DNA of 64,000 bases from an uncultured Eubacteriales bacterium (lineage in GTDB: Bacteria > Bacillota > Clostridia > Lachnospirales > JAISER01): assembly GCA_964545475.1 (NCBI GenBank), contig CAZJGG010000002.1, positions 4,892-68,891 of the forward strand, read 5' to 3'. Below the pieces are notes generated by a model, which saw only the letters and a list, made by a program, of their open reading frames with translations, made no database searches and was not told the origin of the DNA. Positions 2,202 through 28,972 of the stretch are shown one piece after another. Numbering within the stretch: the stretch's first letter is position 1; every line of letters starts with the position of its first letter. Both the position numbers and the translations under genes were made by a program.

Positions 2202-2251
2202 GTTATATAATATTACATGTAATTTGCACAAAAAGTATGGAGTGGTGTAAT

Positions 2252-2986
2252 ATGATCCAACGTAACTCATCAAACGCCATGTATTTACAGCTTGTAGAGC
2301 TGATAAAACGGGAGATTTTGCAAAGAAAGTACATAGAGGATTCATGTATTGGAAAACATACTGAAATTGCAGAAAGATGGAAGGTTAGCTTAATAACCGT
2401 TAGAAAAGCTCTTAAAATACTGGAAGAAGAAGGCTATATTACAATTAAGCAAGGTAAAGGCACTTTTGTTAAGCCGGGCATATTAAAAAACGAGCTTAAC
2501 AGACTTACCGGCACCACTCAAAACATTCTTAAAACAAACATAAAGCCGGATGTTAAAGTACTTAGTATTGAAAAAATAACAACCCCTGAAAGTTTTTCCC
2601 CGGAAATTAAAAGAGAAATGGGCGAAAAATGTATTTTAGCGGAAAGAATCCACTCTGTGGATGGAACGGTTATAAGCTTTGCACGCCTTTACCTGCCTAT
2701 AGAATATGGAGAGCAATTGAGTAAGGAAGAATTGGAAAATTTTACGGTTTACCAACTGTATCAAAACAAGCTTGGTGTACAGCTAGGCAAAGGACGACAA
2801 AACATTAGAGCCGTACCATCAAATGTTATACTTGCCAATATGTTTGGCGTGGCGCAGGGTACGCCGTTGTTGTTTATTGAAAGAGAGGCGTACAGCAAAC
2901 AAAACCAGCTTATAGAAGTTATGGAGTTATATTACGACCATACCCAGTATACCTTTAGGGTTGAATTGGACTTAAGCGCTGAATAG
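2252..2986 (+). CDS. GntR/HutC-family transcriptional regulator (wHTH + UTRA effector domain)
   Basis: N-terminal wHTH (HTEIAERWKVSLITVRKALKILEEEGYITIKQGKGTFV) with a UTRA-like C-terminal half. GGAGTGG 6-7 nt upstream favours the ATG at 2252 over the ORF-track start at 2237. Confidence 0.85.
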   Translation: MIQRNSSNAMYLQLVELIKREILQRKYIEDSCIGKHTEIAERWKVSLITVRKALKILEEEGYITIKQGKGTFVKPGILKNELNRLTGTTQNILKTNIKPDVKVLSIEKITTPESFSPEIKREMGEKCILAERIHSVDGTVISFARLYLPIEYGEQLSKEELENFTVYQLYQNKLGVQLGKGRQNIRAVPSNVILANMFGVAQGTPLLFIEREAYSKQNQLIEVMELYYDHTQYTFRVELDLSAE

Positions 2987-3049
2987 AAATTAAAAATGGT
3001 AACCCAAGCATACGTGTATTGGATTATCTTTTTTAAAATAAAAAATAGT

Positions 3050-3223
3050 CTGCTATACTCCTTAACCATATAAAATAGTACTGAGTTGCGAGCAAATTTT
3101 GCTTGTGGCAAGGAAGAGACGACGCCGTGTGCTAGCGGCACACAAGAAGTTGATGACGCAGTTCACAAGTAAAATTCGCCGCAAGGCAGTGCTATTTTAT
3201 GTGGTTAGGAGTATATATAGCAG
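3050..3223 (+). repeat. Long palindromic intergenic repeat, family A copy 1 (MITE/REP-like, about 174 nt)
   Basis: Terminal inverted repeats ctgctatactccttaacca...tggttaggagtatatatagcag. The whole element folds as an imperfect hairpin around gtgtgc-tagcg-gcacac. A near-identical inverted copy lies at 42171-42335. Confidence 0.85.
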
Positions 3224-3252
3224 CTAAACCATATTATATGAGGAGTGTGTTT

Positions 3253-4827
3253 ATGAAGAAGTTAGTTAGTTTAGTAATGGCAGGAGCACTTTGCCTTTCC
3301 GTTTTAACAGCATGTGGCTCAAACGGCGAAAAGCCTGCCCAACAGCAACAACAAGAGCAAAGCGGCGAAACCAAAGGAGAGGCAAATGAGGCAGAAAGCA
3401 CAAAAGTTAAAGATACTTTTATTGTTGCTACAAAAAGAGAACCTAAATCTTTAGTGCCTCATGGTTCAAACGATACAGGCACAAGCTTTGTTACAGCTCT
3501 TATTTACGATTCTTTACTTTCATTTGATAAAGACATGAACGTTATACCGTGTCTTGCAACAGATTGGGAGAAAAAAGATGACGTTACTTATGTTTTTAAC
3601 CTTAGAGATGATGTTTATTTCCATAACGGAGAAAAACTTACAGCAGAAGACGTTAAATTTACATTTGAAAAAGCTGCTAAATCCCCGGCTACAATTGCTC
3701 AGCTTGGCATGATTGACCCGGAGAAAACAAACGTTGTAGACGAAAATACAATTGAAATTGTACTTAGCAAGCCTTTTCCTCCAATTCTTAACTCTCTTGC
3801 CCTTGAAATTGCAAGCATTGTTAACAAAAAAGCCTTTGAAGAAGGCAACTTCGAGGAAAGCCCAATCGGCACAGGTCCTTTTACATTTAAACAATGGGTT
3901 TCCGGCGACAGACTTGAACTTAACGGAAACAAAGAATATTGGGGCGAAAAAGCGGCAATTAACACACTTGTTTTACGCCTTATTCCTGAAGCAACAACAA
4001 GAGCTATTGAAATTGAAACTGGTGGCGTAGACATGGCTTTAGGTTTATCCGATAGTGATACAATTAACTTGAGAGAAAATCCTAATGTAAACATGTATAC
4101 AGAAAACATTTTAAATACTTCATACATGTCATTTAACTGCTCTAAAGCACCTTTTGACAACGCTAAAGTGCGTGCGGCTATAACTTACGCTATAGACGCA
4201 AAAGCTGTTGCAGATGCGGCATCCTTTGGCTTGGCTGAACAATCGTTCTCTCCAATTGCGCCGGGAGTGTTCGGTTACTACAATCCGGGTCAAGTTTACG
4301 AATATAACCCAGAAAAAGCAAAAGAACTTTTGGCAGAAGCAGGCTTCCCAGACGGCTTTAAAACTACTTTAACTCAATCCGGCGACGACGCACAAGCAGA
4401 AATGATTCAAAACATGCTTGGTAAAGTTGGTATATCAGTTGAAATTAACTCTGTAGACTTTGCAAATTGGCTTGATGCTTTAGTTAACGGCAAACAAGAA
4501 ATGTATCTTGGCGGCTGGACAGTTTCTACAGCAGATGCTGACGGCGGCTTAAACGAACCATTTAATTCTAAAAACCACGGCGACGGCGGCAACCGTTCTT
4601 TCTATACAAACACTGAACTTGACGAAATTTTAGAAGCTGCCGCAGTTGAGCTTGATACTGAAAAACGTCTTGAACTTTACAAAGAAGCTCAAACAATTAT
4701 TGCTAACGATGCAGTTTATGTTAACCTAATGATTGGCCGTACTAATGTAGCAACTAAAAAAGAGGTTACAAACCTTGAGCTTATGCCAACACAAAACATT
4801 AAGCTTAACCTTATCAGATTTGAATAA
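3253..4827 (+). CDS. ABC transporter substrate-binding lipoprotein, family 5 (peptide/nickel/opine type)
   Basis: AGGAG at 3241 precedes the ATG at 3253. Signal peptide plus lipobox MKKLVSLVMAGALCLSVLTAC-GS. SBP_bac_5-like body (LLSFDKDMNVIPCLATDWE, GTGPFTF). Confidence 0.9.
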   Translation: MKKLVSLVMAGALCLSVLTACGSNGEKPAQQQQQEQSGETKGEANEAESTKVKDTFIVATKREPKSLVPHGSNDTGTSFVTALIYDSLLSFDKDMNVIPCLATDWEKKDDVTYVFNLRDDVYFHNGEKLTAEDVKFTFEKAAKSPATIAQLGMIDPEKTNVVDENTIEIVLSKPFPPILNSLALEIASIVNKKAFEEGNFEESPIGTGPFTFKQWVSGDRLELNGNKEYWGEKAAINTLVLRLIPEATTRAIEIETGGVDMALGLSDSDTINLRENPNVNMYTENILNTSYMSFNCSKAPFDNAKVRAAITYAIDAKAVADAASFGLAEQSFSPIAPGVFGYYNPGQVYEYNPEKAKELLAEAGFPDGFKTTLTQSGDDAQAEMIQNMLGKVGISVEINSVDFANWLDALVNGKQEMYLGGWTVSTADADGGLNEPFNSKNHGDGGNRSFYTNTELDEILEAAAVELDTEKRLELYKEAQTIIANDAVYVNLMIGRTNVATKKEVTNLELMPTQNIKLNLIRFE

Positions 4828-4838
4828 TTTTTAAAACC

Positions 4839-4903
4839 GTAGGGAACGACCCTCGTGTCATTCCGTTTTTCATAAGTGGAGTAGTCGTTCCCTACTTTTT
4901 TTT
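4839..4903 (+). terminator. Intra-operon hairpin and partial terminator between the SBP and permease genes (GTAGGGAACG-stem element, copy E1)
   Basis: Perfect 12-bp stem gtagggaacgac (4839-4850) / gtcgttccctac (4884-4895) with a 33-nt loop, followed by T8. Confidence 0.7.
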
Positions 4904-4954
4904 GAATTAGTTATGAAATGAACATATTTGCAACACTTTGACTAGGGTGATTAG

Positions 4955-5926
4955 ATGATAAAATATATAGCAAAAAGGTTGCTTATGATGATTCCTGTTA
5001 TTATAGGCGTAACCTTTATAGTATTTACTATTTTGCACTTTACCCCGGGGGATCCGGCTCGTACAATTTTAGGTGAGCTTGCCACAAAAGAAGAAGTGGA
5101 CGCCCTTAGGGAGCAGCTTGGACTTAACAAAGGTTTTTTTGAGCAATATTTTAATTACATAAAAAATATAGTAATGCATTTGGATTTCGGCAACTCGTTT
5201 ATAAACGGAAAGGATGTTTCAAAAGAGCTTTTTTCCCGTTTCCCAACTACGTTTTTGTTGGCATCGTTAAGCATGATTTTGGCTGCGGCTATAGGCATAC
5301 CATCCGGAATTATTTCAGCCACAAAACAGTATTCCATTTTTGACAACTTCGTTACAGTGTTTTCCCTTGTAAGCTTAGCTATGCCAAGTTTTTGGCTTGG
5401 TCTTATGCTTATAATAGCTTTTTGTTTAAAACTTCATATTTTTCCGGCTTCCGGTTTTTATGGGCCGCAATATTGGGTTTTGCCTGTTATTACGGTAGGC
5501 ACTGGTTGTGCTGCCGGTATAATGAGAACTACTCGTTCCAGTATGTTGGAAGTTGTTAGGCAGGACTACATACGAACCGCCAGAAGTAAAGGTCAAAAGG
5601 AAAATATAATAGTAAGAAAACACGCTTTAAGAAACGCTATTATTCCTGTTATTACAATTATGGGCTTACAGTTTGGACACCAATTGGCAGGAACGGTTGT
5701 TGTAGAATCTATTTTCGCTATACCGGGCTTAGGTAAGCTTTTGGTAGATTCCATTGCGGCAAAAGATTTGCCGATGATTCAAAGCGGCGTTTTATTTTTA
5801 GCCGTTGTTTTCAGTTTGGTAAACTTATTTGTAGACGTTATGTATGCATTTATTGATCCAAGAATACGTTCTCTTTACGTCAGAATAAAGCCAAAACAGA
5901 TAAAGGCGGGTGAGACAAATGCATAA
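4955..5926 (+). CDS. ABC transporter permease (DppB/OppB-like)
   Basis: Multi-TM protein with an N-terminus typical of BPD_transp_1 Opp/Dpp permeases (MIKYIAKRLLMMIPVIIGVTFIVF) and an EAA-like loop (YIRTARSKG). Confidence 0.9.
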   Translation: MIKYIAKRLLMMIPVIIGVTFIVFTILHFTPGDPARTILGELATKEEVDALREQLGLNKGFFEQYFNYIKNIVMHLDFGNSFINGKDVSKELFSRFPTTFLLASLSMILAAAIGIPSGIISATKQYSIFDNFVTVFSLVSLAMPSFWLGLMLIIAFCLKLHIFPASGFYGPQYWVLPVITVGTGCAAGIMRTTRSSMLEVVRQDYIRTARSKGQKENIIVRKHALRNAIIPVITIMGLQFGHQLAGTVVVESIFAIPGLGKLLVDSIAAKDLPMIQSGVLFLAVVFSLVNLFVDVMYAFIDPRIRSLYVRIKPKQIKAGETNA

Positions 5927-6785
5927 TACAGAAACTTTCAAAAAGAAAAGCCTTTGGGCAGATGCATGGAAAAGACTTAGAAAAAACCGCATGGCTATGA
6001 TTGGTCTTGGCATAATTACAATGTTTATTATTTTGGCTATTTTTGCAGATCAAATCGCCCCATATGGCTACGACGACCAAGACTTAAACAGACGATTTAT
6101 GTTTCCTAATAAAGATTTTTGGTTTGGAACGGATATGTTTGGGCGCTGTATTTTAAGCCGTATTATTTACGGCGCTAGAATATCTTTACAAGTAGGCTTT
6201 GTAGCTGTTACCATATCCGGTTGTATCGGAGGAACTTTAGGCGCAATTGCTGGATACTATGGTAATACTGTAGACAATGTAATAATGCGCTTTTTAGATA
6301 TAATTATGGCAATACCAAGTGTTTTACTTGCGATTATTATTGCAACCTCTCTTGGTTCGGGTCTTGGCAACCTTATGCTTGCTGTTGGTTTGGCTTCCGT
6401 GCCTAGTTATGCTCGTCTTGTACGTGCTTCCATACTTACAATAAAAGAACAGGAATTTGTAGAAGCCGCACGCCTTGTAGGATGTTCAGATGCAAGAATA
6501 ATTTTCAGACATATGATACCAAATGTTATGGCTCCAATAATCGTACAGGTTACATTAAGCATGGCTTTAGCTATATTAAGCGCATCAACATTAAGCTTTA
6601 TAGGGCTTGGCATAAAGCCGCCTACGCCTGAATGGGGCGCAATGCTTTCCGCAGGGCGTGCTTATATAAGGGATTACTGGCATGTTGTAACTTTCCCGGG
6701 GTTGGCAATAGTTACAGTAATTTTGGCGCTTAACCTTTTGGGTGACGGCTTAAGAGATGCGCTTGATCCAAGAATGAAGCGTTAG
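5919..6785 (+). CDS. ABC transporter permease (DppC/OppC-like)
   Basis: OppC-like N-terminus (WKRLRKNRMAMIGLGII) and EAA loop (EFVEAARLVGCSD). The ATG at 5919 follows AAAGGCGGG; the ORF track's GTG at 5910 is an alternative start. Confidence 0.88.
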   Translation: MHNTETFKKKSLWADAWKRLRKNRMAMIGLGIITMFIILAIFADQIAPYGYDDQDLNRRFMFPNKDFWFGTDMFGRCILSRIIYGARISLQVGFVAVTISGCIGGTLGAIAGYYGNTVDNVIMRFLDIIMAIPSVLLAIIIATSLGSGLGNLMLAVGLASVPSYARLVRASILTIKEQEFVEAARLVGCSDARIIFRHMIPNVMAPIIVQVTLSMALAILSASTLSFIGLGIKPPTPEWGAMLSAGRAYIRDYWHVVTFPGLAIVTVILALNLLGDGLRDALDPRMKR

Positions 6786-6799
6786 GCAGGTGTAGATAA

Positions 6800-7789
6800 A
6801 TGGAAAAAGAACAGAACTTTCTCGAAATAACCAATTTAAAGGTAGAATACCATACAGACGATGTGACTGTTAAAGCCGTAAATGGTGTAGATTTAGTATT
6901 AAATAAAGGCGAAACATTAGGTCTTGTTGGAGAAACCGGGGCAGGGAAAACAACAACAGCTTTAAGTATGTTGTCATTACTTCCAGACCCACAGGGTAAA
7001 GTAACCAGCGGAAAAATCATGTTTGAGGGTAATAACGTTTTAGATATGTCTCTGACAGAGCTTAGAAAGCTTCGTGGCAACAAAATGTCTATGATATTCC
7101 AAGACCCAATGACTTCTTTAAACCCTATTATGACGGTAGGCGACCAAATTGCCGAAGTTGTAAAGCTTCACCAAAACGTTTCATTGGCTGAGGCTAACCG
7201 CAGAGCTATGGAAATGTTAGAGACAGTAGGAATTCCGGCAGAGCGTTTTTATGAATATCCTCATCAGTTTTCCGGCGGAATGAAGCAGAGAGTTGTTATA
7301 GCTATTGCTCTTGCTTGTAACCCGGGTTTGCTTATTGCAGACGAGCCTACAACGGCTCTTGACGTAACAATACAAGCCCAGGTTTTAGAGCTTATGAACA
7401 GGCTTAAGCAAGAATTTAATACCGCTCTTTTACTCATAACCCACGACCTTGGCATTGTTGCGGAAATGTGCGATAGAGTAATGATTATGTATTGCGGAGA
7501 AATTGTTGAATCCGGGACGATAAACGATGTATTTGAAAAACCCGGGCATCCATATACTTTAGGGCTTTTTGGTTCAATACCGGATATTGAAACTAATGTA
7601 ACAAGGCTTAAACCTATTATGGGGCAAGTGCCTGATCCATCAAATTTACCCCCTGGATGTAAATTTGCAAACCGTTGCGGCGATTGCACGGATAGATGCA
7701 TAAAAGAAGAGCCGGAAGCTTATGAAGTTTCGCCGGGGCATAAAGTGAAATGCTTTTTGGCGCAAAACGCCGGAGGTGACGTAAAATGA
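6800..7789 (+). CDS. ABC transporter ATP-binding protein (DppD/OppD-like)
   Basis: Walker A GETGAGKT, signature FSGGMKQR, Walker B LLIADEPT and a C-terminal oligopeptide-type Cys motif [14 protein letters not shown]. Confidence 0.92.
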
Positions 7790-8739
7790 GCCAGCTTGAA
7801 GTTAAAAACCTGAAAAAATACTTTAAAACCCCGAGAGGAACTCTCCATGCGGTAGACGGTATAGACTTTAAAATAGAAAAAGGTCAGACACTTGGCATCG
7901 TTGGGGAGTCCGGCTGTGGTAAATCCACCCTTGGGCGTGTTGTTTTACATTTGCTTGAAAAAACCGAAGGTCAAATATACTTTGAGGGCGAAGATATTTC
8001 TAACATTAATAAAAAACAGCTTAAAGACATACGTAAAGATATGCAAATGATTTTTCAAGACCCTTTCTCTAGCTTAAACCCACGTATGACCGTATCTGAA
8101 ATTATTGCAGAGCCTATGATTGTACATAAGACCATGGAAAACGGGCAGGGGGTTTTAAGAAGAGTTGCGGAGCTTATGGATATTGTAGGCTTAGCAAGAC
8201 GCCTTGAAAACACATACCCTCACGAGCTGGACGGCGGAAGGAGACAACGTATCGGAGTAGCAAGAGCATTGGCTTTAAACCCTAAGTTTATTGTTTGCGA
8301 CGAGCCAGTGTCCGCTTTGGACGTATCAATCCAAGCCCAAATACTGAATCTTATGATGGACTTGCAGGACGAACTTGGTCTTACTTATATTTTTATTACC
8401 CACGATTTATCAGTAGTTAAGCATATTTCCAATGAAATTGGCGTTATGTACCTTGGCAAAATGGTTGAAAAAACCACATCTGATAAGTTATTTAAGAAAC
8501 AGTATCACCCTTATACAAAAGCACTTTTATCGGCCATTCCGTCGGTAAAATTAGATGCTAGACGTGAAAGAATAATACTTAAAGGGGAAATTTCATCTCC
8601 AATAAACCCGAAACCGGGTTGCCGCTTTGCTCCTCGCTGTTTATATGCGCAGAACAAATGCTTTAACGATTCCCCAGAATTTAGAATGATTGAAGACGGA
8701 CACCAAGTTGCGTGCCACTTTGCGGAAAAGGTGAACTAA
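7786..8739 (+). CDS. ABC transporter ATP-binding protein (DppF/OppF-like)
   Basis: Walker [10 protein letters not shown], signature-like LDGGRRQR, Walker [13 protein letters not shown] and C-terminal CRFAPRC. There is a 4-nt overlap with the upstream gene. Confidence 0.92.
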
Positions 8740-8745
8740 AGTCTT

Positions 8746-9549
8746 ATGGTATATGATGCTCATGTTCACTTCGGAAACGGAGAAAAAATACGAAATATTA
8801 TAAAAACCAGCGTGTTTTATGATGAATTTCCATGTTATCAAGGTGCGCAGCCAGATAAGATAGATAATTATGACAAGCTATTAAAGCAGAACGGCTTAGC
8901 CGGAGCTACGCTTATGCCTTTTGTTTTTAAAGAAAACGTGCCAAAAGAAGAAAATGCCGAACTTCTCCAATTTTGTGAAAGTAATGAAGGGTTTTACCCG
9001 TTTCTGCTTTTAGACGAAAAAGACGTTAATGCGGCGGAACAGCATAAAAACCAAATATATGGTGTAAAAGAGCACTTCATACAGACAGAAAGTGTTTTAA
9101 CCAATGAAAAAGCCCAAATTTTTGATATTGTAAATAAGTACGGTATAACGTTTGTTATTCACTCAACAGGCGCACAGCGTATTGAGTACGTTTCAAGCAT
9201 TTTAAAGCTGTTTCCCCACATAAAAATACAAATAGCCCACATGGGGCGGGGAAGCATAAACCAGCTGGATTTTATTTTTGAGGTAATGGCGGCTTTTAAG
9301 GGATATGACAATGTTTTTTATGACACTTCTACAATAAGGGATTGCAGAATATTAGAAAAATCCGTTAACTTAATTGGCCCTGAAAGAATTTTGTATGGCT
9401 CTGATTTTCCGTTTTCCATGGAAAACACAGAAGAAGATATAATAGAAAAACAAATAAGCCATGTGCTAAAATCAAAAATATCCGATGACGCAAAAGAACG
9501 TATATTAGGCGGAAATTTTAAAAATTTAATAGCAAAGCGAGATGTTTAA
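8746..9549 (+). CDS. Metal-dependent amidohydrolase-fold (TIM-barrel) hydrolase, amidohydrolase_2-like
   Basis: N-terminal DAHVHF (HxH metal motif), later IAHMGRG and YGSDFPF, as in the amidohydrolase_2 family. Lies in the same operon as the ABC importer. Confidence 0.65.
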   Translation: MVYDAHVHFGNGEKIRNIIKTSVFYDEFPCYQGAQPDKIDNYDKLLKQNGLAGATLMPFVFKENVPKEENAELLQFCESNEGFYPFLLLDEKDVNAAEQHKNQIYGVKEHFIQTESVLTNEKAQIFDIVNKYGITFVIHSTGAQRIEYVSSILKLFPHIKIQIAHMGRGSINQLDFIFEVMAAFKGYDNVFYDTSTIRDCRILEKSVNLIGPERILYGSDFPFSMENTEEDIIEKQISHVLKSKISDDAKERILGGNFKNLIAKRDV

Positions 9550-9551
9550 TT

Positions 9552-10304
9552 TTGAAAGGTATAAAACTTAAAGAAATAACTCACAAGCAATGCAAACCTT
9601 TGCTTAACGAAGATGCTATAGTAGTTTTGCCAATTGGAGGCGGAGTTAAGGAGCACGGCTCACATTTGCCTCTTGGAACAGACTTTTTTGTTACAGATTT
9701 TATAGCAGAAAAAGTTGTGGAGCGCAACGAAGTTTTGCTCTTGCCAACGCTTCCTTACGCATACTTCCCGGCTTTTGTGGATTGGGAAGGCAGCGTTTCC
9801 ATACAAGCAGACAACTTTATTGCTTATGTAAAAGACATAATATTAAGTTTTCAGAAATTCGGCGTAAAAAAGTTTTTAATAATTGACGGCGGTGTATCTA
9901 CTCAACAGCCTCTTATAATACTATCCAGAACTTTGTTTAACGAATATGGCATACATGTAGCGTTAACAAACATTTTAGGATTAGGCAGAGAAGTTGAAAA
10001 AGAAATTTGCCAGCAAAAGCAAGGCGGCCACGGTGACGAAACCGAGACAAGCTGTATGCTTCATATTAATGAAAAATTAGTAAAAATGGAAGAGACCTGC
10101 GAAGAATACACTACACCTGCTCCGGGATGCTCTGTTAACGGTATTTTAAAAGTTTATATGCCCGGTAAAATGGACACGAAAAGCGGAATTAACGGTAACA
10201 GTACCCTTGCCACTAAAGAAAAAGGCGAAAAAGTTTTAAATGCAATGATAGATGATATTTGCAATTTTTTAGACAATTTTCGCAATTTTAGGGGAAATAA
10301 TTAA
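9552..10304 (+). CDS. Creatininase-family amidohydrolase
   Basis: LPIGGGVKEHGSHLPLGTD and GGHGDETETSCML resemble the creatininase-family metal-binding motifs. TTG start 2 nt after the upstream stop. Confidence 0.7.
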   Translation: MKGIKLKEITHKQCKPLLNEDAIVVLPIGGGVKEHGSHLPLGTDFFVTDFIAEKVVERNEVLLLPTLPYAYFPAFVDWEGSVSIQADNFIAYVKDIILSFQKFGVKKFLIIDGGVSTQQPLIILSRTLFNEYGIHVALTNILGLGREVEKEICQQKQGGHGDETETSCMLHINEKLVKMEETCEEYTTPAPGCSVNGILKVYMPGKMDTKSGINGNSTLATKEKGEKVLNAMIDDICNFLDNFRNFRGNN

Positions 10305-11533
10305 TGACTAATAAAAATTACTTGGACTATTATGCTTATAAATCCCAAAATGGGGAGCAAATTAAGTTTGTCAGCGGCGATGGAGCGGCTTTAACAGATG
10401 AAAGAGGCTGTACTTATATAGATTTAGATGAAATTATTAATATTTTAGGGCAAAATAATCAAGAATTTAATAATCGGATTATGAGCGTATTGACCGGGCC
10501 GGATATGGCGAAAGGGGGCGTCCACCCTCAAAAGGAAGCTCTTATTCAAAGCTTATTAGAAATAACAGAAGACAAGTTTAATAAAATGTTTTTTGCTTCC
10601 AGCGCCAGCGAATCTGTGGAATCAGCAATAAAACTGGCGAAGAAAGCTACCGGAAGAACAGAAATATTATGTTTTTGGAACAGCGTTCACGGTCGTACTT
10701 ATGTTAGTTCGTCTGTTTCTGGCAAAAAAAACAGAAAAAACGGTTATGGTCCGTTAGCAGCAGGGGTTGTGTACAGTCCATACCCAAAATGTATATGCTG
10801 TATACATAATCTTTGCTCGGAAAACTGCGGTTTTAAATGTATTGAGCATTTGGACAGAATTGTAGACAATGAATCTGCTGATGATATTGCGGCATTAATT
10901 ATTGAACCCATACAAACATTTGAAGGAAACTGCCCACCGGAGGGTTATTTAAAAAGGTTATTTGAATGGGCTAAGGCAAAAGACATTTTGGTTATCTTTG
11001 ACGAAGTGCAAAGCGGCATAGGCCGCACAGGGAAAATGTTTCGGTATATGCATGAAGAAATTACGCCGGATATTCTTTTGACGGGTAAAGGCCTTGGCAA
11101 CGGCATACATATATCTGCTCTTTTGTTTAACGAAGGGATTGTGCCTGAAAAGGATTTAAGAATACTTGCCGGAGGCAGCGGAGATAACGAAGTTTCGTGC
11201 GCCGCAGCGGCGGCAGTGCTATCTTATGTTAAAAAGCCAGAGACTATTGAGAGAATAGCAAAAATCGGGCAAATGCTTAAGACTGCTGTTAATGGAGTTA
11301 AAGAAAAATACGGCTTTATTGAACAAGTGCGTGGCGACGGTTTGATGATTGCCATTGAATTTACAACAGAAGAAATTTGCAATAAAATACTTCAAGTTTT
11401 AATAGATAATAAATTTATAATTATGGCTGTTAACAAAACACTTATTTTTAAACCACCGTTGGTTTTGACAGAAGTACAGGCGCAAAGTTTTATTAGCACT
11501 TTGTTAAAATCTTTTGATGAAGTTTCTTTGTAA
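10304..11533 (+). CDS. Class-III (PLP-dependent) aminotransferase
   Basis: DEVQSGIGRTGKMF, then PDILLTGKGLGNG carrying the candidate PLP lysine. Start overlaps the upstream stop (TAATG). Confidence 0.85.
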   Translation: MTNKNYLDYYAYKSQNGEQIKFVSGDGAALTDERGCTYIDLDEIINILGQNNQEFNNRIMSVLTGPDMAKGGVHPQKEALIQSLLEITEDKFNKMFFASSASESVESAIKLAKKATGRTEILCFWNSVHGRTYVSSSVSGKKNRKNGYGPLAAGVVYSPYPKCICCIHNLCSENCGFKCIEHLDRIVDNESADDIAALIIEPIQTFEGNCPPEGYLKRLFEWAKAKDILVIFDEVQSGIGRTGKMFRYMHEEITPDILLTGKGLGNGIHISALLFNEGIVPEKDLRILAGGSGDNEVSCAAAAAVLSYVKKPETIERIAKIGQMLKTAVNGVKEKYGFIEQVRGDGLMIAIEFTTEEICNKILQVLIDNKFIIMAVNKTLIFKPPLVLTEVQAQSFISTLLKSFDEVSL

Positions 11534-19394: not shown

Positions 19395-19470
19395 TGAATT
19401 TTACAGCTGGAAGTTCTGCAGGCTTTCAGTAGTAGAAAACGCTACAAGTTAATTTAAATTGGAGGTAGAA

Positions 19471-20445
19471 ATGAAAGGTTTTCTTGTTTTTGAAGACGGA
19501 ACGGTTTTAGAGGGCAAGGCGTTCGGAAGTCGGAACACCGTAGCCGCAGACATTTGTTTTCATACTGAAATGGCAGGGTATGAAAACATCCTTACAGATC
19601 CTGCCAACAGCGGGCTAATTGTTATGATGACATATCCGCTTATTGGAAATTACGGCTTTTCCGCCGAAGATTACACAAAAAAGGCATATCCAGCCGGGCT
19701 TATTGTAAAAGACTTTTCAGAACATCCAAGCCACTATCAATGCGAGTATACAATTTCCCAGTTTTTAAGAAAAAATAATATTTTCGGCCTTTCATATGTT
19801 GACACAAGGCTTACGGCAAGAAAGCTTTTAAATTCTCAAGGGTTAAAGTGCTGTTTAACTGTTGAAGAACCAAGCGTTTCTTTGTTTGAAAAAGTATATA
19901 AAAGCGTTGTTACTGCTGATGGAAGCGTAGAAAAGAAAGAAATAATAGAGAACAAAGAAAATAGCAAAAAAGTTGCTATTATTGATTTAGGCTCTAAAGC
20001 AGGGCTTGTAAACAGATTGAAAGATAAAGCAAGCCTATATATTTACCCTAACAAAATCAGTGCAGATGATATTCTTTCTGAAAAACCAACTTGCGTTTAC
20101 ATCACCCACGGCGGCGGAAAAATTGAGGGAATTGAACATATTAGCCCAATAATTTCAGCAATTATTGATAAAACTGAAATTAATGCGGAAGGCTTTGGTG
20201 CGCTGGCTCTTGCAAAAGCTTTAGGTATGGAAGTTATAAAAATGCCAAACGGATACAGAGGAGCAAACTTCCCTGTAATTAACTTAACCGACGGTAAAGT
20301 TAAAACAACTAGTTTTAATATTGGTTATACAATTGCTGAAAATAAATTGCCAGAGGGCTTAGAAGTTACTGAAAGAAATTTAAACGATAATTCAATAGCA
20401 GCATTCCGTTATAAAAACGCAAATGCTTCGCTTTACACTATCTAA
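19471..20445 (+). CDS. carA: Carbamoyl-phosphate synthase small-subunit homologue lacking the glutaminase catalytic triad
   Basis: The N-terminal CPSase small-chain domain is well conserved (YENILTDPANSGLIVMMTYPLIGNYG). In the GATase half, the GICLGHQ nucleophile motif reads AEGFGALALA (no Cys) and HRGxNHPV reads YRGANFPV. The protein ends before the HPE motif. GGAGG at 19461 favours the ATG at 19471. Confidence 0.8.
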   Translation: MKGFLVFEDGTVLEGKAFGSRNTVAADICFHTEMAGYENILTDPANSGLIVMMTYPLIGNYGFSAEDYTKKAYPAGLIVKDFSEHPSHYQCEYTISQFLRKNNIFGLSYVDTRLTARKLLNSQGLKCCLTVEEPSVSLFEKVYKSVVTADGSVEKKEIIENKENSKKVAIIDLGSKAGLVNRLKDKASLYIYPNKISADDILSEKPTCVYITHGGGKIEGIEHISPIISAIIDKTEINAEGFGALALAKALGMEVIKMPNGYRGANFPVINLTDGKVKTTSFNIGYTIAENKLPEGLEVTERNLNDNSIAAFRYKNANASLYTI

Positions 20446-23720: not shown

Positions 23721-23784
23721 AACGTGAGTTCGACGAAGTCGAAAAGCCGCTTTAGCGTCTTAGTTGCGGAGCAATTCTCATGTT
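23721..23784 (+). repeat. 64-nt intergenic repeat, family D copy 1
   Basis: aacgtgagttcgacgaagtcgaaaagccgctttagcgtcttagttgcggagcaattctcatgtt. Termini aacgtgag/ctca(c/t)gtt are inverted, with internal mini-hairpins ttcgac-gaa-gtcgaa and ccgc-ttta-gcg. Further copies at 26986 and 42126. Confidence 0.85.
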
Positions 23785-23887: not shown

Positions 23888-25510
23888 ATGAGTTTAACGA
23901 TAGATAAAATTTTGCAGTTCGGAGGGCTTGTAGGGGCTAATTTTGTAGCTGGGCAAAAAGGCAAGGATAATGTTGTTGTAAGTATATCTGTTCTAGAAAT
24001 TGCCGAACCTCAAATTTCCAGGTGGGTAATGGAAAACGAGCTTTATATAACGTCTTTTTATGCTATCCGAGATAATGTTGAAATGCAAAAAATTGTTATT
24101 GAAACCCTTTATAATTACGGCTGTTGTGGGCTTGTTATTTGCCATACAGGTATTTGCTTAGAAAAAGTTGACGAAGAGGTTATAAAGCTTTGCGACAGGC
24201 TGGGATTCCCTCTTATATTAGCAAAATCTGATGTTTCGTATATTGAAATTATTAACCCAATAATTTCTAGGTTTATTATAGATAATGAAAACGCCGAGGA
24301 AATCACTTGCATTAAAAGAGAATACCTAGACATAATAGTTAACGAAAACGACACAGCTGAAGCGCTTAAAAAATTAACATTTGCAATAAAAAAAGAAGCC
24401 TCTTATTACGACATAGATTTTAATTGCCTCTATTCAAATAAAAACGACATGGTAAATCAGTCTGAAAAAAGTATGCTTAAAGAGAAGTTTAACATAAAGG
24501 GCATAAATGACAAACAAGACTATGAATTTGTTAGTGATAAACCAGATGGAAATAAGTTAGTAAAATTAGTTAAGTCAAATAGCAATTTTTTTGGATTTAT
24601 TGTATTTTCTATATCTAATGGGGATTTGGAGGAAATTAATAAAATTGCTGACGAAATAACTGTTGCCTGCGCTTTATTAATAAGCAGAAAAAATAAAATC
24701 TCAAACCTTTTAGCAACGGCTAAACAGGAATATATAAGCGACTTGCTAATATGGAACTTCCGCTCAGACGATGTTGCAGTTAGCCGTGGAGAAGAATTAG
24801 GTTTTAATATTTTAGATAAAAACACAATTATTGTTGTTAATATAAATGTGTACCAGCTTAAGCTTAATAAAGATTTAGATAAAAATAATTCTGTAACGGC
24901 TTATATAAAACAATGGATTTTGCCTAATATAGCAAATATTACCAAAATTTTAAACCCATCAAATTTTGTGGTTTTTAGAAGTGATACCATAATTTTATTT
25001 TTAGAAAATAAAAACAAAAATTTAAATATAAGGTCTTTATGCGAAAAAATAATTAAGGTCTTTTTAGCCACGGATAAAAGCACCGTTTCTATTGGTGTGA
25101 GCAGGCGTTTTACCGAATATAAGAAAATTGCGGAAGCATATATGGAAGCCTTTACAACGGCTATATTAGGCCGGGAATATTTAGGAGATAACCTTGCGGT
25201 TACTTATGAAGATGTTTTATTTTTTAGGTATATAAAGACTATAAAAAACGAAGCCGGAATGCAGGAAACAGCAAAACGGATTTTAGCCCCACTTATTGAA
25301 TATGACAAAGAACGAGGAAGCTGCCTTGTTGAAACGTTAAAACAATTAATTTTTAATAACGGAGACGTGCTAAAAGTTGCCGATAAAATGTTTATCCATA
25401 GAAATACTCTTCTTTACAGAAAAAACAAAATAACAGAGCTTTTGGGGAGCGACCCTTTTACAATGCCGGATATTTTAAACTTTATTTGTGCTCTTTACAC
25501 TATAGAATAA
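23888..25510 (+). CDS. PucR-family transcriptional regulator
   Basis: C-terminal PucR-type HTH (MFIHRNTLLYRKNKITELLG) with a large N-terminal putative ligand-binding region. The ATG at 23888 follows GGTAAAGGG. Confidence 0.8.
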   Translation: MSLTIDKILQFGGLVGANFVAGQKGKDNVVVSISVLEIAEPQISRWVMENELYITSFYAIRDNVEMQKIVIETLYNYGCCGLVICHTGICLEKVDEEVIKLCDRLGFPLILAKSDVSYIEIINPIISRFIIDNENAEEITCIKREYLDIIVNENDTAEALKKLTFAIKKEASYYDIDFNCLYSNKNDMVNQSEKSMLKEKFNIKGINDKQDYEFVSDKPDGNKLVKLVKSNSNFFGFIVFSISNGDLEEINKIADEITVACALLISRKNKISNLLATAKQEYISDLLIWNFRSDDVAVSRGEELGFNILDKNTIIVVNINVYQLKLNKDLDKNNSVTAYIKQWILPNIANITKILNPSNFVVFRSDTIILFLENKNKNLNIRSLCEKIIKVFLATDKSTVSIGVSRRFTEYKKIAEAYMEAFTTAILGREYLGDNLAVTYEDVLFFRYIKTIKNEAGMQETAKRILAPLIEYDKERGSCLVETLKQLIFNNGDVLKVADKMFIHRNTLLYRKNKITELLGSDPFTMPDILNFICALYTIE

Positions 25511-25700
25511 TTTTGGAATAATAAATATGCCATGTTTAAATTTTGTTTTTCTGTACAAAATATAGTGGCATAATACCCGTTTATTAAGGACATTTGTGCA
25601 TTTGCCTTAATAGATGGGTCTTTTTTTGTCTCTTAAAACATAGTAAGTGTAAAAAAATTATTGTAATATTAACTCGAATTTCGTAAAGGGAGATGAGGAA

Positions 25701-26987
25701 ATGGAGAAAAACAATTTAGCACCTACAAATGACAATGCTACTAACAGAGTACCGGAAAACGAGAAAAAGAGTACTTTTGATGTTGCGATTGTAGCGGCAG
25801 GTTTTTGTATTTGTATGTCGGGCTTGTTTACAGGCGCGTCCATGGCAATGGGGTTTAATTTAACCCAAGCAATTATTGCCGGAGTTATTGGTAACACAAT
25901 TTTACTTATTTACGGCGGCGCAATCGGTATGGCAGGCGCAAAAGAAGGTGTTGCTACAGCAATGCTTGCAAGGCACAGCTTCGGGCGTCAAGGTTCTAAA
26001 ATAATCGGGCTTGTACTGGCTTTAACAATGTTAGGCTGGTTCTCAGTTCAAGTAGGCTTTTTCGGCGACACAATCCATGCAATGTTTCCTAATGGGGGAT
26101 TTATAACTACACCATCAGTAGCAGCGTTTTGGGGCGGTATTTTAATGCTTCTTACAGCTTACTTCGGTTACAAAGGGTTAAGCCTTCTTTCAAAAATTGC
26201 AATACCACTTATTACAATTACTTCAATTATCGGTATTGCTGCAGCAGTTAACAAAGCAGGGGGATGGCCGGCGTTAATCGCAATGCAACCTCCACAACCA
26301 TTGTCAATATCTGCTGGTGTTGTTATGGTTGTTGGTTCTTTCGCAGGTGGTGCTTCTGCTCAAGCAGATATATCACGCTATGCAAAAAGCCCTAAAGCTT
26401 CTTGGATTGCAACAATTGTAGGTTACCTTATAGCAAACCTTTTTATAATAACAGCAGGGTTTATTACAAATATGGCAACAGGCGCAGGGGATTTACCAGC
26501 GGCAATGCTTGCTCTTGGCTTAGGCTTCCCAGCGTTAATAGTTCTTATCGGTGCACAGTGGACAACAAACGACAACAACCTTTATACTGCGGCACTTGGC
26601 TTAAGTAATATTATTAAAGTTAAAAAGTCTTACATTACAATTACAACAGGTATATTAGCAACGATTGTTGGTGCGGCAGGGCTTTCTAACTATTTTGTTG
26701 ATTGGCTTGTAATTTTAGGTATAGGCGTTCCTCCAATGGCAGGCATCATCTTAGCAGACTATTTCTTTATAAAAGGTCAGAAATATCAATACGGTCCGGG
26801 AACAAAATATGTATCATGGAACGGACTTGCATTCATTAGCTGGATAATAGCATGTATCGTAGGTTTCGTAGTTAAATGGGGAATCGGTTCAATAAACTCA
26901 TTGGTTGTAGGCCTTGTTGTATATATTGTGCTTATGAAAACAGTGGGACAAAACAACACAGGTATGATTGGCGAAGATATAGAATAA
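25701..26987 (+). CDS. NCS1-family nucleobase permease (cytosine/purine permease CodB-like)
   Basis: About 12 predicted TM segments. The N-terminal region and overall composition look like CodB-type purine-cytosine permeases. 428 aa. Confidence 0.75.
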   Translation: MEKNNLAPTNDNATNRVPENEKKSTFDVAIVAAGFCICMSGLFTGASMAMGFNLTQAIIAGVIGNTILLIYGGAIGMAGAKEGVATAMLARHSFGRQGSKIIGLVLALTMLGWFSVQVGFFGDTIHAMFPNGGFITTPSVAAFWGGILMLLTAYFGYKGLSLLSKIAIPLITITSIIGIAAAVNKAGGWPALIAMQPPQPLSISAGVVMVVGSFAGGASAQADISRYAKSPKASWIATIVGYLIANLFIITAGFITNMATGAGDLPAAMLALGLGFPALIVLIGAQWTTNDNNLYTAALGLSNIIKVKKSYITITTGILATIVGAAGLSNYFVDWLVILGIGVPPMAGIILADYFFIKGQKYQYGPGTKYVSWNGLAFISWIIACIVGFVVKWGIGSINSLVVGLVVYIVLMKTVGQNNTGMIGEDIE

Positions 26988-27050
26988 CGTGACTTCGACG
27001 AAGTCGAAAAGCCGCTTTAGCGGATTAATTGCGGAGCGATTCTCACGTTA
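26986..27050 (+). repeat. 64-nt intergenic repeat, family D copy 2 (same orientation as copy 1)
   Basis: aacgtgacttcgacgaagtcgaaaagccgctttagcggattaattgcggagcgattctcacgtt. It begins inside the permease stop codon and lies 28 nt upstream of the next gene. Confidence 0.85.
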
Positions 27051-27077
27051 GAATAATTAATTCAGGAGGTATAAATT

Positions 27078-28127
27078 ATGTCAAAGGCTATGGATTTTGA
27101 ACTTGCTCAAGCGGCTTATAAGCTTTTACACGACCAAGTAAAAATTAAAAAAGGTGAAAGCGTTTTAATTACTATTGATTCTGTTTGCGATACTCAAGTT
27201 GCAGACGAATTTGCAAAAATGGCGGAAGCTCTTGGGGCAAAAGTTATGCTTGTGCGCCATTCAACTCCAAAGGGTTACGGTGCGCTTACAATGCCTTATT
27301 TACCAGACCCTCTTAAAGCTTGTGCTTTTGAAACAGACGTATGGATTGAACTTAACGACCAATGGCTTCTTTACTCACCAATTTGGGACAAAGCTGTTAC
27401 AAACGGCAGAACAAGACAAATTATGCTTGGTGGACTTGGCGTTGAACGTATTGTTCGTTGCATAGGTAAAGTGGATATTGATATTCAAAAAGAATTTCAA
27501 GACGAGCTTACAAGGCTTACTAAAAACGCAAAAGAAGTTAGAATTACAAGCACAGTAGGTACAGATGTTAAGTTTTCAAGCAAACCAGGACGAAATATTA
27601 ACAACGAAATTATGTACGATACTCCTGGGGCTCATTTCCTTCTTGGCCAAATTGGCTGGGCACCGGATGAAGAAACAATTAACGGCGTTATTACTTTCGA
27701 CGGTTCAGTTTGCGGCGGCGCAGGCGCAGAGTTTATGGATTTAAGCAAAAACCCGATTTCATATGTTGTTGAAAAAGGCAGAATTGTTGAATTTAGAGGC
27801 GGAGAAGAAGCTAAAATTCTTGAAGCATATTTCGCAAGCCTTAACGACCCTAATATGTATATTGCGGCTCACGTTTGTTACGGCGTTAACCCTAACGCAA
27901 TTTTAGCAGGTTGCACAACAGAAGACGAACGTATTTGGGGTAGCACTCAATGGGGTTTTGGTCACCAAGGATCTAATTATTCCGGCGGCGAACCAAGAGT
28001 GGCAAAAAGCCATATCGACGGTATTTGCAAAGTTTGTACAGTATACCTTGACGGCGTGAAAATATTAGACGAAGGTAAATACATTGAACCAAAACTTGCA
28101 GAATTAGCGGCTAAACTTGGTAAATAG
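27078..28127 (+). CDS. M29 aminopeptidase-fold / NicX-like metalloenzyme
   Basis: 349 aa. The N-terminus KKGESVLITID...AEALGAKV resembles the aminopeptidase T (M29)/NicX fold family. Candidate metal ligands are H265 (AAHVCYG) and H312-x-D314 (KSHIDG). Confidence 0.55.
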   Translation: MSKAMDFELAQAAYKLLHDQVKIKKGESVLITIDSVCDTQVADEFAKMAEALGAKVMLVRHSTPKGYGALTMPYLPDPLKACAFETDVWIELNDQWLLYSPIWDKAVTNGRTRQIMLGGLGVERIVRCIGKVDIDIQKEFQDELTRLTKNAKEVRITSTVGTDVKFSSKPGRNINNEIMYDTPGAHFLLGQIGWAPDEETINGVITFDGSVCGGAGAEFMDLSKNPISYVVEKGRIVEFRGGEEAKILEAYFASLNDPNMYIAAHVCYGVNPNAILAGCTTEDERIWGSTQWGFGHQGSNYSGGEPRVAKSHIDGICKVCTVYLDGVKILDEGKYIEPKLAELAAKLGK

Positions 28128-28148
28128 TGAAGCGAGGTGCTTTGTGTA

Positions 28149-28760
28149 ATGTCTAAAAAAATAAAGGGTGGGGCAGACCCGTTCCCTCCATATCAATATT
28201 TTGATGAAAACGGCGATGTAGTGGGTAGTGATTTTAAGCTTGTTACAGATGCTCTTATAAAAGCAGATTATGAGCCAGAGGTTGTTATTGACGAATGGAG
28301 TATTATTGAAGGAATGCTTTCACGCAAAGAGCTTGACTTCGGCTTTCAAGTTCAAAAGACTCCAGAAAGAGAAAAGAAATATTTCTTTTCAAAACTCCTT
28401 AGAAATGCAGAAACTCAGCTTGTAACATGGGATAAAGACCTTAGGCTTGAAAACTATGGAGAAATTGCGGATAAAAAGCTTAAAATTGGTGTTATGTCCG
28501 GCTATTTATATGGAGATGCCATTGACAATTTACCTTCTGATCTTAAAGTTTGTTATGATTCAGGGGAAGAGCTTCTTAAAGACATAGACAGTAAAAAAAT
28601 AGATTTAGGCGTATTTGATAAAGGCGTTAAAGAATATGTTATGAAAAAATATTCATTGCAAAACATATATAGCGTTGATAATTTAACATTTATTCGCCCG
28701 CTGTATGTTGTGTTTGCAAACCAACAGGTTTGTAACGATTTTAATGAAAACTATGAATAA
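28149..28760 (+). CDS. SBP_bac_3-like solute-binding domain protein without signal peptide (predicted cytoplasmic)
   Basis: PFPPYQYFDENGDVVGSDFKLV and TPEREKKYFFS match the family-3 amino-acid SBP pattern. The N-terminus MSKKIKGGADP has no hydrophobic leader or lipobox. Confidence 0.6.
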   Translation: MSKKIKGGADPFPPYQYFDENGDVVGSDFKLVTDALIKADYEPEVVIDEWSIIEGMLSRKELDFGFQVQKTPEREKKYFFSKLLRNAETQLVTWDKDLRLENYGEIADKKLKIGVMSGYLYGDAIDNLPSDLKVCYDSGEELLKDIDSKKIDLGVFDKGVKEYVMKKYSLQNIYSVDNLTFIRPLYVVFANQQVCNDFNENYE

Positions 28761-28769
28761 ATAGAATCT

Positions 28770-28920
28770 TAGAGTCTGTTCAGAATCAAGCTTTTGGTGG
28801 ATTTTTGAGTAAATTTTTTGAGGCAACCGTTAAAGTGGTATCTTTGTGCAAGGAGCCGCTGACGTAGCAATTCGGAAAATTTGACAAAAAGACGCCAAAA
28901 TGGAGATTCTGAACAGGCTC
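28770..28920 (+). repeat. Long palindromic intergenic repeat, family C copy 2 (about 151 nt; core motif on plus strand)
   Basis: Termini agagtctgttcagaatc / gagattctgaacaggctct, inverted relative to the copy at 17906-18071. Confidence 0.8.
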
Positions 28921-28932
28921 TATAGGCAAAAT

Positions 28933-28972
28933 TAAAGACACTTCTAATTTAGAAGTGTCTTTAATACTTTTT
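28933..28972. terminator. Hairpin terminator between convergent transcription units
   Basis: Stem aaagacacttc / gaagtgtcttt with a 7-nt loop, followed by aatactttttt. Confidence 0.65.

What the first reader, a model, noticed from the sequence alone, without database searches (positions are those of the whole stretch)
23888..28760. PucR regulator + NCS1 permease + M29/NicX-fold enzyme + cytoplasmic SBP-like protein: candidate N-heterocycle utilisation module
PucR-family regulators typically control purine or N-heterocycle catabolism, and NCS1 permeases carry cytosine, purines, hydantoins and related compounds. No deaminase, hydantoinase or other known partner follows. Instead the locus encodes a 349-aa M29/NicX-fold protein and a signal-less family-3 solute-binding domain. 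I cannot map this combination to a described pathway.
Basis: inference. Interest (0 to 1): 0.55.

Follow-up and report, generated by a model that had tools for sequence, protein, structure and literature searches.

The report
Candidate cyclic-dipeptide uptake and ring-opening cassette
Four neighbouring genes, kept together in dozens of mostly anaerobic microbes, probably import small ring-shaped dipeptides (common in cooked food and microbial secretions, and resistant to ordinary proteases) and cut them open, which would supply a candidate gene for an enzyme activity known since the 1980s whose gene I could not find reported.

Summary
The four genes are real and intact. They travel as a unit: 24 of the 40 closest loci keep all four, and most share a palindromic operator.

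The 349-aa enzyme has the NicX fold (Z 33) but is neither a NicX dioxygenase nor an M29 aminopeptidase. The Ser302 iron ligand is Gly, the host lacks oxidases, and three of the six M29 metal ligands are changed. It keeps one His-His-Asp site, a glutamate NicX lacks, and NicX's lactam-binding Glu/His pair.

Its family sits beside cyclodipeptide-oxidase (AlbAB) homologues (9 of 12 such genomes among 400 sampled), hydantoin-racemase-fold enzymes and five different di/aminopeptidase families. No carbamoylase was found. The permease has Mhp1-type amide-binding residues, not CodB's cytosine residue.

Best reading (about 50%): uptake and hydrolytic opening of cyclic dipeptides. The substrate is inferred, not shown.

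The signal-less binding protein follows one enzyme clade regardless of transporter and keeps the amino-acid-binding Arg/Asp pair; its role is open.

This scan noted related cyclic-amide clusters on other DNA before.

The parts
23888..25510 (+). PucR/CdaR-family transcriptional activator, 540 aa (PucR N-domain, GGDEF-like, HTH_30)
   Evidence: 32-46% identical to PucR genes of most same-type loci versus only short weak matches to other PucR-like genes of this genome
25542..25559 (.). Putative PucR operator half of a tandem pair (degenerate TTGTGCA-N2-TGCACAA palindrome)
   Evidence: score 11.2 bits with a matrix trained on 30 other loci; weak alone, as 208 sites in the genome score 10 or more
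25593..25610 (.). Second putative PucR operator, about 90-108 nt upstream of the permease start
   Evidence: score 11.4 bits; in related loci the motif usually lies 100-140 nt upstream, information content 15.7 versus about 8 in shuffles
25701..26987 (+). NCS1 permease, 428 aa, CodB-like scaffold with W113/F214 aromatic clamp and Mhp1-type Q117/N293; CodB Q105 and F33 replaced (M110, C38)
26985..27050 (.). Copy of a ~65-bp palindromic interspersed repeat (about 58 copies in the genome); not part of the conserved module
27078..28127 (+). NicX/M29-fold metalloenzyme, 349 aa; H265/H312/D314 metal site, E284, R285, E177/H186; candidate cyclic-dipeptide hydrolase
28149..28760 (+). Signal-less family-3 solute-binding-fold protein, 203 aa; invariant D10, F12, W50, R74, D157 plus family-specific Q16, Q67, R85, T89, R183
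28772..28920 (.). Long imperfect inverted repeat, a second interspersed element (about 34 copies in the genome); not part of the module
28931..28965 (+). Terminator-like hairpin between the cassette and the convergent asnS gene
   Evidence: pattern match only
23721..23784 (.). Another copy of the ~65-bp repeat, between carB and pucR

Best explanation
A self-contained scavenging cassette for cyclic dipeptides (2,5-diketopiperazines, DKPs). (1) PucR senses the substrate or a product and activates the operon through the palindrome upstream of the permease (palindrome shown, binding inferred). (2) The NCS1 permease imports the uncharged ring, stacking it between W113 and F214 and reading its cis-amide with Q117/N293, as Mhp1 does for hydantoins (residues shown, substrate inferred). 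(3) The NicX-fold enzyme holds one ring amide with E177/H186, as NicX holds the lactam of the similarly shaped 2,5-dihydroxypyridine. It presents the opposite amide to a single divalent metal (H265/H312/D314), and E284 activates water to give the linear dipeptide (residue pattern shown, chemistry inferred). (4) A dipeptidase releases the amino acids; it is encoded next door in many genomes and elsewhere in this one (PepD, M19 and M29 genes). (5) The cytoplasmic SBP binds the zwitterionic product through R74/D157 and acts as a sensor, sink or accessory factor for this enzyme clade (least certain step).
For: Cyclodipeptide oxidase homologues (AlbA E 3e-23, AlbB E 1e-4 and 9e-7) occur in 19 of 80 family loci. 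In 400 sampled genomes of the phylum, 12 carry CDO-B and 16 carry the enzyme family; 9 carry both (about 0.5 expected), 8 of them in one cluster. Five peptidase families are recruited directly beside the module: PepV-like/Sapep, M19, PepT-like, PepD and dinuclear M29. They occur in 27 of 80 loci, 26 co-oriented and mostly within 250 nt of a module gene. More distant paralogues with the same active-site pattern also abut PepV/M20 genes. Neighbouring racemases are hydantoin-racemase-like and match OpaE, and an Asp/Glu-racemase homologue is a proven DKP isomerase (PMC10156859). Published DKP breakdown is two-step, a ring hydrolase of unknown identity plus a dipeptidase, and ordinary peptidases do not cleave DKPs (PMC3852281). 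No carbamoylase was found in this genome or by motif in the 80 loci. The active-site pattern is near-invariant across about 95 family members.
Against: There is no experiment on any member. The window's cassette has neither a CDO nor a dipeptidase beside it. CDO genes are mostly linked to the sister clade (50-57% identity): 17 of 40 loci versus 2 of 40 in the closer group, so the substrate may have shifted. CDO homologues outside Actinomycetota are themselves untested and were read as hydantoin/purine-related by Andreas & Giessen. DUF917 neighbours belong to a family named for an S-methyl-thiohydantoin desulfurase. Residue equivalences rest on sequence and profile alignment, not on superposed coordinates. 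Related genomes are not independent, so the enrichment p-value (4e-12) overstates.
Confidence: 0.5

Rival explanations
1. The cassette imports and opens another small cyclic amide derived from amino acids (hydantoin, thiohydantoin, pyroglutamate/succinimide-type or amino-lactam ring), working like a hyu operon with a new hydrolase family.
For: Mhp1-type Q117/N293; hydantoin-racemase-like, DUF917 (S-Me-THD) and hydantoinase/oxoprolinase-A neighbours in 14, 21 and 7 of 80 loci; NicX lactam-binding pair kept.
Against: A hydantoin route needs a carbamoylase; none was found in G000 (95% complete) or by motif in the loci. The recruited M20 enzymes score as dipeptidases/PepT-like, not as hydantase family. 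It does not explain the link to cyclodipeptide oxidases.
Confidence: 0.22
2. The enzyme is an unusual peptidase for linear but protease-resistant dipeptides (D-residue, dehydro, N-blocked or isopeptide), imported by the permease.
For: Descent from the M29 peptidase fold, with E284, H312 and D314 kept; Opp-type peptide transporters in 14 sister-clade loci and racemases nearby.
Against: NCS1 permeases with an aromatic clamp carry small flat rings rather than zwitterionic peptides (established knowledge of CodB and Mhp1). Separate dipeptidases are added next door, which suggests the enzyme acts upstream of them. Half of the dinuclear site is altered.
Confidence: 0.14
3. One reading: an N-heteroaromatic (pyrazinone, pyridone, pyrimidine or purine derivative) is imported, hydroxylated by a Mo enzyme, reduced and ring-opened hydrolytically.
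For: Xanthine-dehydrogenase-type Mo enzymes flank 6 of 80 loci; three also carry an FMN-reductase-fold gene and two an NCS2 permease. G000 has a Mo-hydroxylase cluster elsewhere. A 2,5-dihydroxypyrazine would reduce to a DKP, so this could be an upstream extension of the best explanation.
Against: Absent from 74 of 80 loci and from this cassette; one of the Mo-enzyme loci also carries PepV; the CodB cytosine determinant is lost.
Confidence: 0.09
4. The enzyme is a true NicX-type Fe(II)/O2 ring-cleaving dioxygenase.
For: Same fold (Z 33.3, 324 residues aligned); H265, H318, D320, R293, E177 and H189 equivalents are kept.
Against: Ser302, essential for iron binding in NicX, is Gly293 in the whole family, and a Glu replaces Ala292. 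Identity is 21%. The host has no haem-copper or bd oxidase and five [FeFe]-hydrogenase-like genes. No nicC, nicD or nicE homologue was found in the 80 loci.
Confidence: 0.03

Closest known systems
NicX, 2,5-dihydroxypyridine dioxygenase of Pseudomonas putida (PDB 7cn3; PMC7910607; Pfam PF26233)
   Same: Fold, length, mononuclear His-His-Asp site, Arg293 equivalent, lactam-binding Glu177/His189
   Different: 21% identity; Ser302 is Gly, Ala292 is Glu, His105 is Tyr; anaerobic hosts; no nicC/D/E partners
M29 aminopeptidases AmpT, AmpS, PepS (2ayi, 1zjc, 4ics) and the crocagin proteins CgnB/CgnE (PMC10070186)
   Same: Fold (Z 23-25; Cgn 14); the E340, H376 and D378 equivalents
   Different: Dinuclear site altered: E250 is Q191, E316 is H265, H345 is Q/E291; true dinuclear paralogues sit beside it in 7 loci as separate genes
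Non-CDPS cyclodipeptide-oxidase gene clusters (Andreas & Giessen, bioRxiv 10.1101/2023.09.25.559410, PMC11055893)
   Same: Sister-clade enzymes lie in these clusters, with DUF917, racemases, Opp transporters and peptidases; same permease subfamily and operator palindrome in some
   Different: The section read names no NicX/M29-fold gene and proposes purine metabolism or biosynthesis; the window's cassette has no CDO, DUF917 or racemase but has the cytoplasmic SBP
Hydantoin utilisation operons (Mhp1 permease, hydantoinase, carbamoylase, racemase)
   Same: Logic of NCS1 import plus ring-opening hydrolase; Q121/N318-type permease residues
   Different: No amidohydrolase-superfamily hydantoinase and no carbamoylase; dipeptidases instead
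[quoted passage not shown] No. 106; cyclo(Gly-Leu) hydrolase plus dipeptidase; reviewed in PMC3852281)
   Same: Predicted reaction and two-step pathway; inducible and substrate-specific
   Different: No sequence is given for those enzymes in the paper read, so identity with this family cannot be tested
Family-3 amino-acid-binding proteins (ArgBP, ArtJ, AncCDT-1) and the SBP-derived enzyme cyclohexadienyl dehydratase
   Same: Fold (TM 0.73-0.79); aromatic clamp and the Arg/Asp pair that binds alpha-amino acids
   Different: No signal or lipoprotein peptide, no cognate ABC permease, about 20% identity, extra invariant polar residues

Membership tests
NicX dioxygenase | NicX/M29 two-domain fold | tested here: met
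   AlphaFold model pLDDT 94; Foldseek TM 0.76, VIA Z 33.3 to 7cn3
NicX dioxygenase | Fe ligands His265, His318, Asp320 | tested here: met
   H265, H312, D314
NicX dioxygenase | Fourth Fe ligand Ser302 (S302A is inactive and iron-free) | tested here: not met
   Gly293 throughout the close family
NicX dioxygenase | Maleamate-pathway partners nicC/nicD/nicE nearby and an aerobic host | tested here: not met
   No BLAST match of nicC/D/E in 80 loci; nicF-like genes in 3 loci, none directly beside the enzyme gene; no terminal oxidases found in G000, 95% complete
NicX dioxygenase | O2-dependent ring cleavage | not testable with these tools
   needs an assay
M29 aminopeptidase | Dinuclear ligand set E250, E316, E340, H345, H376, D378 (AmpT numbering) | tested here: not met
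   Q191, H265, E284, Q291, H312, D314: three of six changed
M29 aminopeptidase | Pfam PF02073 gathering score | tested here: not met
   14.7 bits against a cut-off of 27
CodB cytosine permease | NCS1 fold with Trp108/Phe204 clamp | tested here: met
   W113 in 34/34, F214 in 33/34
CodB cytosine permease | Gln105 (needed for cytosine transport) and NCBIfam equivalog score | tested here: not met
   M110, and none of 34 orthologues has Gln; 289 bits against 326
Mhp1-like hydantoin permease | Gln121 and Asn318 amide-binding residues | tested here: met
   Q117 in 32/34, N293 in 33/34, by sequence alignment with a one-residue gap near N318; overall similarity to Mhp1 is low (E 8e-4)
Hydantoin utilisation (hyu) operon | Hydantoinase and N-carbamoylase genes | tested here: not met
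   None in the cassette; TIGR01879 not found in G000; no carbamoylase motif in the loci
ABC-transporter solute-binding protein, family 3 | Fold and amino-acid-binding Arg/Asp | tested here: met
   R74 and D157 invariant in 69 sequences
ABC-transporter solute-binding protein, family 3 | Export signal and cognate polar-amino-acid ABC permease | tested here: not met
   No room for a signal peptide; none evident in homologues; no such permease among the conserved neighbours
Non-CDPS cyclodipeptide-oxidase cluster | CDOA and CDOB genes in the cluster | tested here: not met
   None at this locus; PF19585 not found in G000; present in 19 of 80 related loci
Diketopiperazine hydrolase (activity class) | Hydrolysis of a DKP to the linear dipeptide | not testable with these tools
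   inferred from gene context and active site only

The most novel reading that the evidence does not exclude
The Q/H/E/R subfamily of the NicX/M29 fold is a long-sought cyclic-dipeptide hydrolase, widespread in anaerobic bacteria and archaea including gut Lachnospiraceae and Oscillospiraceae. The cassette is its minimal form, and the cytoplasmic solute-binding protein is a new kind of product-binding partner or an SBP-derived enzyme. NicX dioxygenase would then be an oxidative offshoot of a lactam-binding hydrolase scaffold.
Probability: 0.4. Interest if true: 0.8.

Novelty: new variant of a known kind. Interest (0 to 1): 0.62.

Why it matters
Cyclic dipeptides are abundant in food, microbial secretions and drug breakdown products, and they resist peptidases. 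Bacteria are known to open them, but a 2013 study states that the enzymes are unidentified, and my searches of the open literature found no later identification (subscription papers were not searched).

This cassette gives a small, cultured-strain-accessible candidate (Neobacillus vireti, Tissierella, Miniphocaeibacter, Kushneria, Marinobacterium) and a one-afternoon assay. It would also give a catabolic purpose to the 88% of cyclodipeptide-oxidase clusters that lack a synthase. It would correct hundreds of proteins now labelled 'leucyl aminopeptidase' or '2,5-dihydroxypyridine dioxygenase' in anaerobes. Whatever the substrate, a signal-less solute-binding protein that tracks one enzyme clade is an unexplained part worth testing.

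Tried and rejected
- **Enzyme-SBP co-folding:** no answer; used neither for nor against binding.
- **Fusions of the SBP family to longer proteins:** only generic sensor-kinase and ABC SBP domains at 21-31% identity; no informative fusion (weak negative).
- **NCBIfam for the enzyme (52 sequences) and Rfam for the region:** no match.
- **Genome-wide operator scan:** 208 hits of 10 bits or more, too unspecific to define a regulon.
- **Promoter scan:** at chance level, 22 found versus 19.6 expected.
- **Synteny around asnS in two same-family genomes:** uninformative, the loci were too short. The enzyme was not found at close identity in either genome.
- **Recent transfer:** GC3 of the cassette (0.26-0.30) is like that of the neighbouring carA/carB, so there is no clear sign.
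- **Racemases as NicE maleate isomerase:** rejected; they match hydantoin/allantoin racemases and OpaE.
- **The two intergenic palindromic repeats:** rejected as module parts; they are genome-wide interspersed elements.
- **Literature searches** for an assigned orthologue or a cloned DKP hydrolase: none found.
Full report
OBSERVATION. The window comes from a 3.05-Mb, 95%-complete, low-GC genome. It has no haem-copper or bd oxidase and five [FeFe]-hydrogenase-like genes, so it is almost certainly an anaerobe. Between carB and the convergent asnS lie four intact co-oriented genes: a PucR-family regulator (23888-25510), an NCS1 permease (25701-26987), a 349-aa protein (27078-28127) and a 203-aa SBP_bac_3 protein (28149-28760; the ATG behind a ribosome-binding site is preferred over the GTG at 28137).

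CONSERVATION. The enzyme has 772 homologues at E 1e-10 or better, the best 120 at 62-93% identity. The SBP has its own family of about 200-aa proteins at 40-66%. I fetched 80 genomic loci and annotated them with profile HMMs built from recurring neighbours. In the 40 closest loci (about 60% identity or more), PucR occurs in 28, NCS1 in 33, the SBP in 35 and all four in 24; several others are cut by contig ends. Gene order shuffles and the flanks differ each time, so the cassette moves as a unit. A palindrome TTGTGCA-N2-TGCACAA lies about 100-140 nt upstream of the first gene after pucR in most of 31 loci (information 15.7 bits versus about 8 in shuffles; 25 of 30 training sites score 12 or more). 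The window has two weaker copies at 25542 and 25593. Co-regulation is therefore supported; PucR binding is inferred.

THE ENZYME. The model (pLDDT 94) matches NicX best (Z 33.3, rmsd 3.3, 324 residues, 21% identity), then AmpS and AmpT (Z 25 and 23) and CgnE/CgnB (Z 14). NicX binds Fe through His265, Ser302, His318 and Asp320, positions Asp320 with Arg293, and holds the substrate lactam with Glu177 and His189 (PMC7910607). By alignment the window protein has H265, H312, D314, R285, E177 and H186, but Gly293 for Ser302 and Glu284 for Ala292. Against the dinuclear M29 site (AmpT E250, E316, E340, H345, H376, D378; numbering partly and partly from my knowledge; dinuclear site per PMC10070186) it reads Q191, H265, E284, Q291, H312, D314. 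This Q/H/E/R pattern is near-invariant in about 95 close members and extends to about 35% identity, while true dinuclear M29 proteins form separate clades. It is thus a third type on this fold: one metal, a retained glutamate suited to activate water, a lactam-reading pair and an altered second metal site. I infer a hydrolase for a substrate with a ring amide and no free alpha-amine. 2,5-Dihydroxypyridine and a 2,5-diketopiperazine are similarly shaped six-membered rings with carbonyl or hydroxyl groups at positions 2 and 5; that analogy is mine and was not docked.

THE PERMEASE. It is closest to CodB (E 7e-54) and keeps the Trp/Phe clamp. It lacks Gln105, whose mutation sharply reduces cytosine transport, and Phe33. 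It has Gln and Asn at the positions of Mhp1 Gln121 and Asn318, the main hydantoin-binding residues (PMC9379551; Q117 in 32/34, N293 in 33/34). The same permease subfamily (55-62% identity) also serves loci with CDO, racemase or DUF917 (L040, L065, L067, L071), which links the minimal cassette to the larger clusters.

WHAT THE NEIGHBOURS SAY. (a) Nitroreductase plus DUF6092 pairs, or fusions, occur in 19 of 80 loci, 17 of them in the 50-57% group. They match the cyclodipeptide oxidase subunits AlbA and AlbB in the PDB. As an independent check, in 400 genomes drawn across the phylum, 12 carry CDO-B, 16 carry the enzyme family and 9 carry both, 8 within about 10 kb (Fisher p 4e-12, overstated because kin are not independent). 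In G442 a CDO-racemase-NCS1-DUF917-PepD module lies back to back with the four-gene cassette itself. (b) Peptidases of five families are directly attached: PepV-like (4 loci), M19 (7), PepT-like (6), PepD (3) and dinuclear M29 (7). G000 has about four such genes in all, so chance adjacency is well under 1% per locus (rough estimate). The M19 loci form one clade, so the number of independent events is about five or six. (c) The racemases are hydantoin-racemase-like and hit OpaE; a member of this family isomerises DKPs (PMC10156859). (d) No carbamoylase was found, and no nicC/D/E homologue. (e) Mo-hydroxylases flank 6 loci, which I cannot fully explain. Published work describes DKP breakdown as ring hydrolase plus dipeptidase with the hydrolase unidentified (PMC3852281). 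It also notes that 88% of CDO clusters lack a cyclodipeptide synthase and carry racemases, DUF917, peptide transporters and peptidases.

THE CYTOPLASMIC SBP. It folds as a complete two-lobed family-3 binding protein (pLDDT 96, TM up to 0.79) and has no export signal. The Arg and Asp that bind the carboxylate and amine of amino acids in this family (established knowledge; alignment) are invariant, as are five further polar residues. On the enzyme tree it is confined to one clade (SH-aLRT 100, 51 rows; 42 of 49 locus rows have it, and two of the seven without end at a contig edge). It is present whether the transporter is NCS1, NCS2 or a Liv-type ABC system. Sister-clade rows show it only where a clade member shares the locus. 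It never co-occurs with Opp transporters (0 of 14) and rarely with CDO (2 of 20). In the 400-genome sample it appears only in the two genomes with this enzyme clade. It therefore belongs with the enzyme, not with the transporter. Since a DKP has no free amine or carboxylate, it more likely binds the opened product. An enzymatic role, as in SBP-derived cyclohexadienyl dehydratase, is equally open.

VERDICT. Shown: a conserved, apparently co-regulated four-gene cassette; an enzyme that fails membership of both NicX and M29 while sharing their fold; a permease that is not a CodB orthologue; an SBP tied to the enzyme clade; and strong contextual ties to cyclodipeptide-acting and dipeptide-cleaving enzymes. 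Inferred: cyclic-dipeptide import and hydrolysis (0.5); other cyclic amide (0.22); odd linear dipeptides (0.14); heteroaromatic route (0.09); dioxygenase (0.03). Earlier notes of this scan reached similar cyclic-amide readings for related clusters on other DNA. I had the CDO lead before seeing them, and they are not independent evidence. I found no published function for any orthologue in the library searched.

Noticed in passing
window 19459-20445: The carA-like gene (328 aa) in the arginine operon appears to lack the catalytic Cys motif and the C-terminal His-Pro-Glu of the glutaminase triad, judged by eye from the translation; possibly a catalytically dead small subunit of an ammonia-using carbamoyl-phosphate synthase.
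   Followed up: no
window 23721-23784 and 26985-27050: A ~65-bp multi-hairpin palindromic element with about 58 copies in the genome, some in tandem clusters and several at contig ends; REP- or MITE-like, no Rfam match.
   Followed up: partly
window 28772-28920: A ~150-bp long inverted-repeat element (fold z -6.1) with about 34 copies in the genome; MITE-like.
   Followed up: partly
window 2237-11533: A second orphan-looking catabolic operon: GntR/UTRA regulator, family-5 SBP with further ABC-type genes, Amidohydro_2, creatininase-family protein and class-III aminotransferase.
   Followed up: no
L016:9902-13056, L025:4074-12903, L038:9302-20496, L062:7623-11907, L069:7633-9993: Mo-hydroxylase (xanthine-dehydrogenase type) genes joined to the cassette, in three cases with an FMN-reductase-fold gene and in two with an NCS2 permease; L025 also has PepV. 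Could be a pyrazinone-to-DKP entry route.
   Followed up: partly
L110 and L118 (G442:C7:24900-43000; same genome as L012): Two paralogous modules back to back: PucR-PepD-CDOB-CDOA-racemase-NCS1-DUF917 and PucR-NCS1-enzyme-SBP. DUF917 may be an alternative ring-opening enzyme.
   Followed up: partly
L057, L075:7699-8526, L079, L082: Fused CDOA-CDOB genes in Thermotogota, Spirochaetota and Bathyarchaeia beside the enzyme family.
   Followed up: partly
L049:2391-3602, L055:12276-13490 and L050, L051, L053, L090: An uncharacterised ~404-aa nitroreductase-like protein follows the enzyme or SBP in one subclade; no NCBIfam match.
   Followed up: no
L112 and L113 (G135, G438): CDO clusters in which the NicX/M29-fold gene is present only as short fragments, possibly decayed.
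   Followed up: no
L040:1613-2824; L054:8660-10825: A transposase-like 403-aa ORF sits between enzyme and SBP in L040; the permease and enzyme genes are split in Tissierella sp. P1 (frameshifts or assembly errors).
   Followed up: no
L046: The enzyme-SBP pair (63% identity) occurs in a Desulfurococcales archaeon and nests among Bacillota sequences on the tree, on a long branch; possible transfer or binning error.
   Followed up: no
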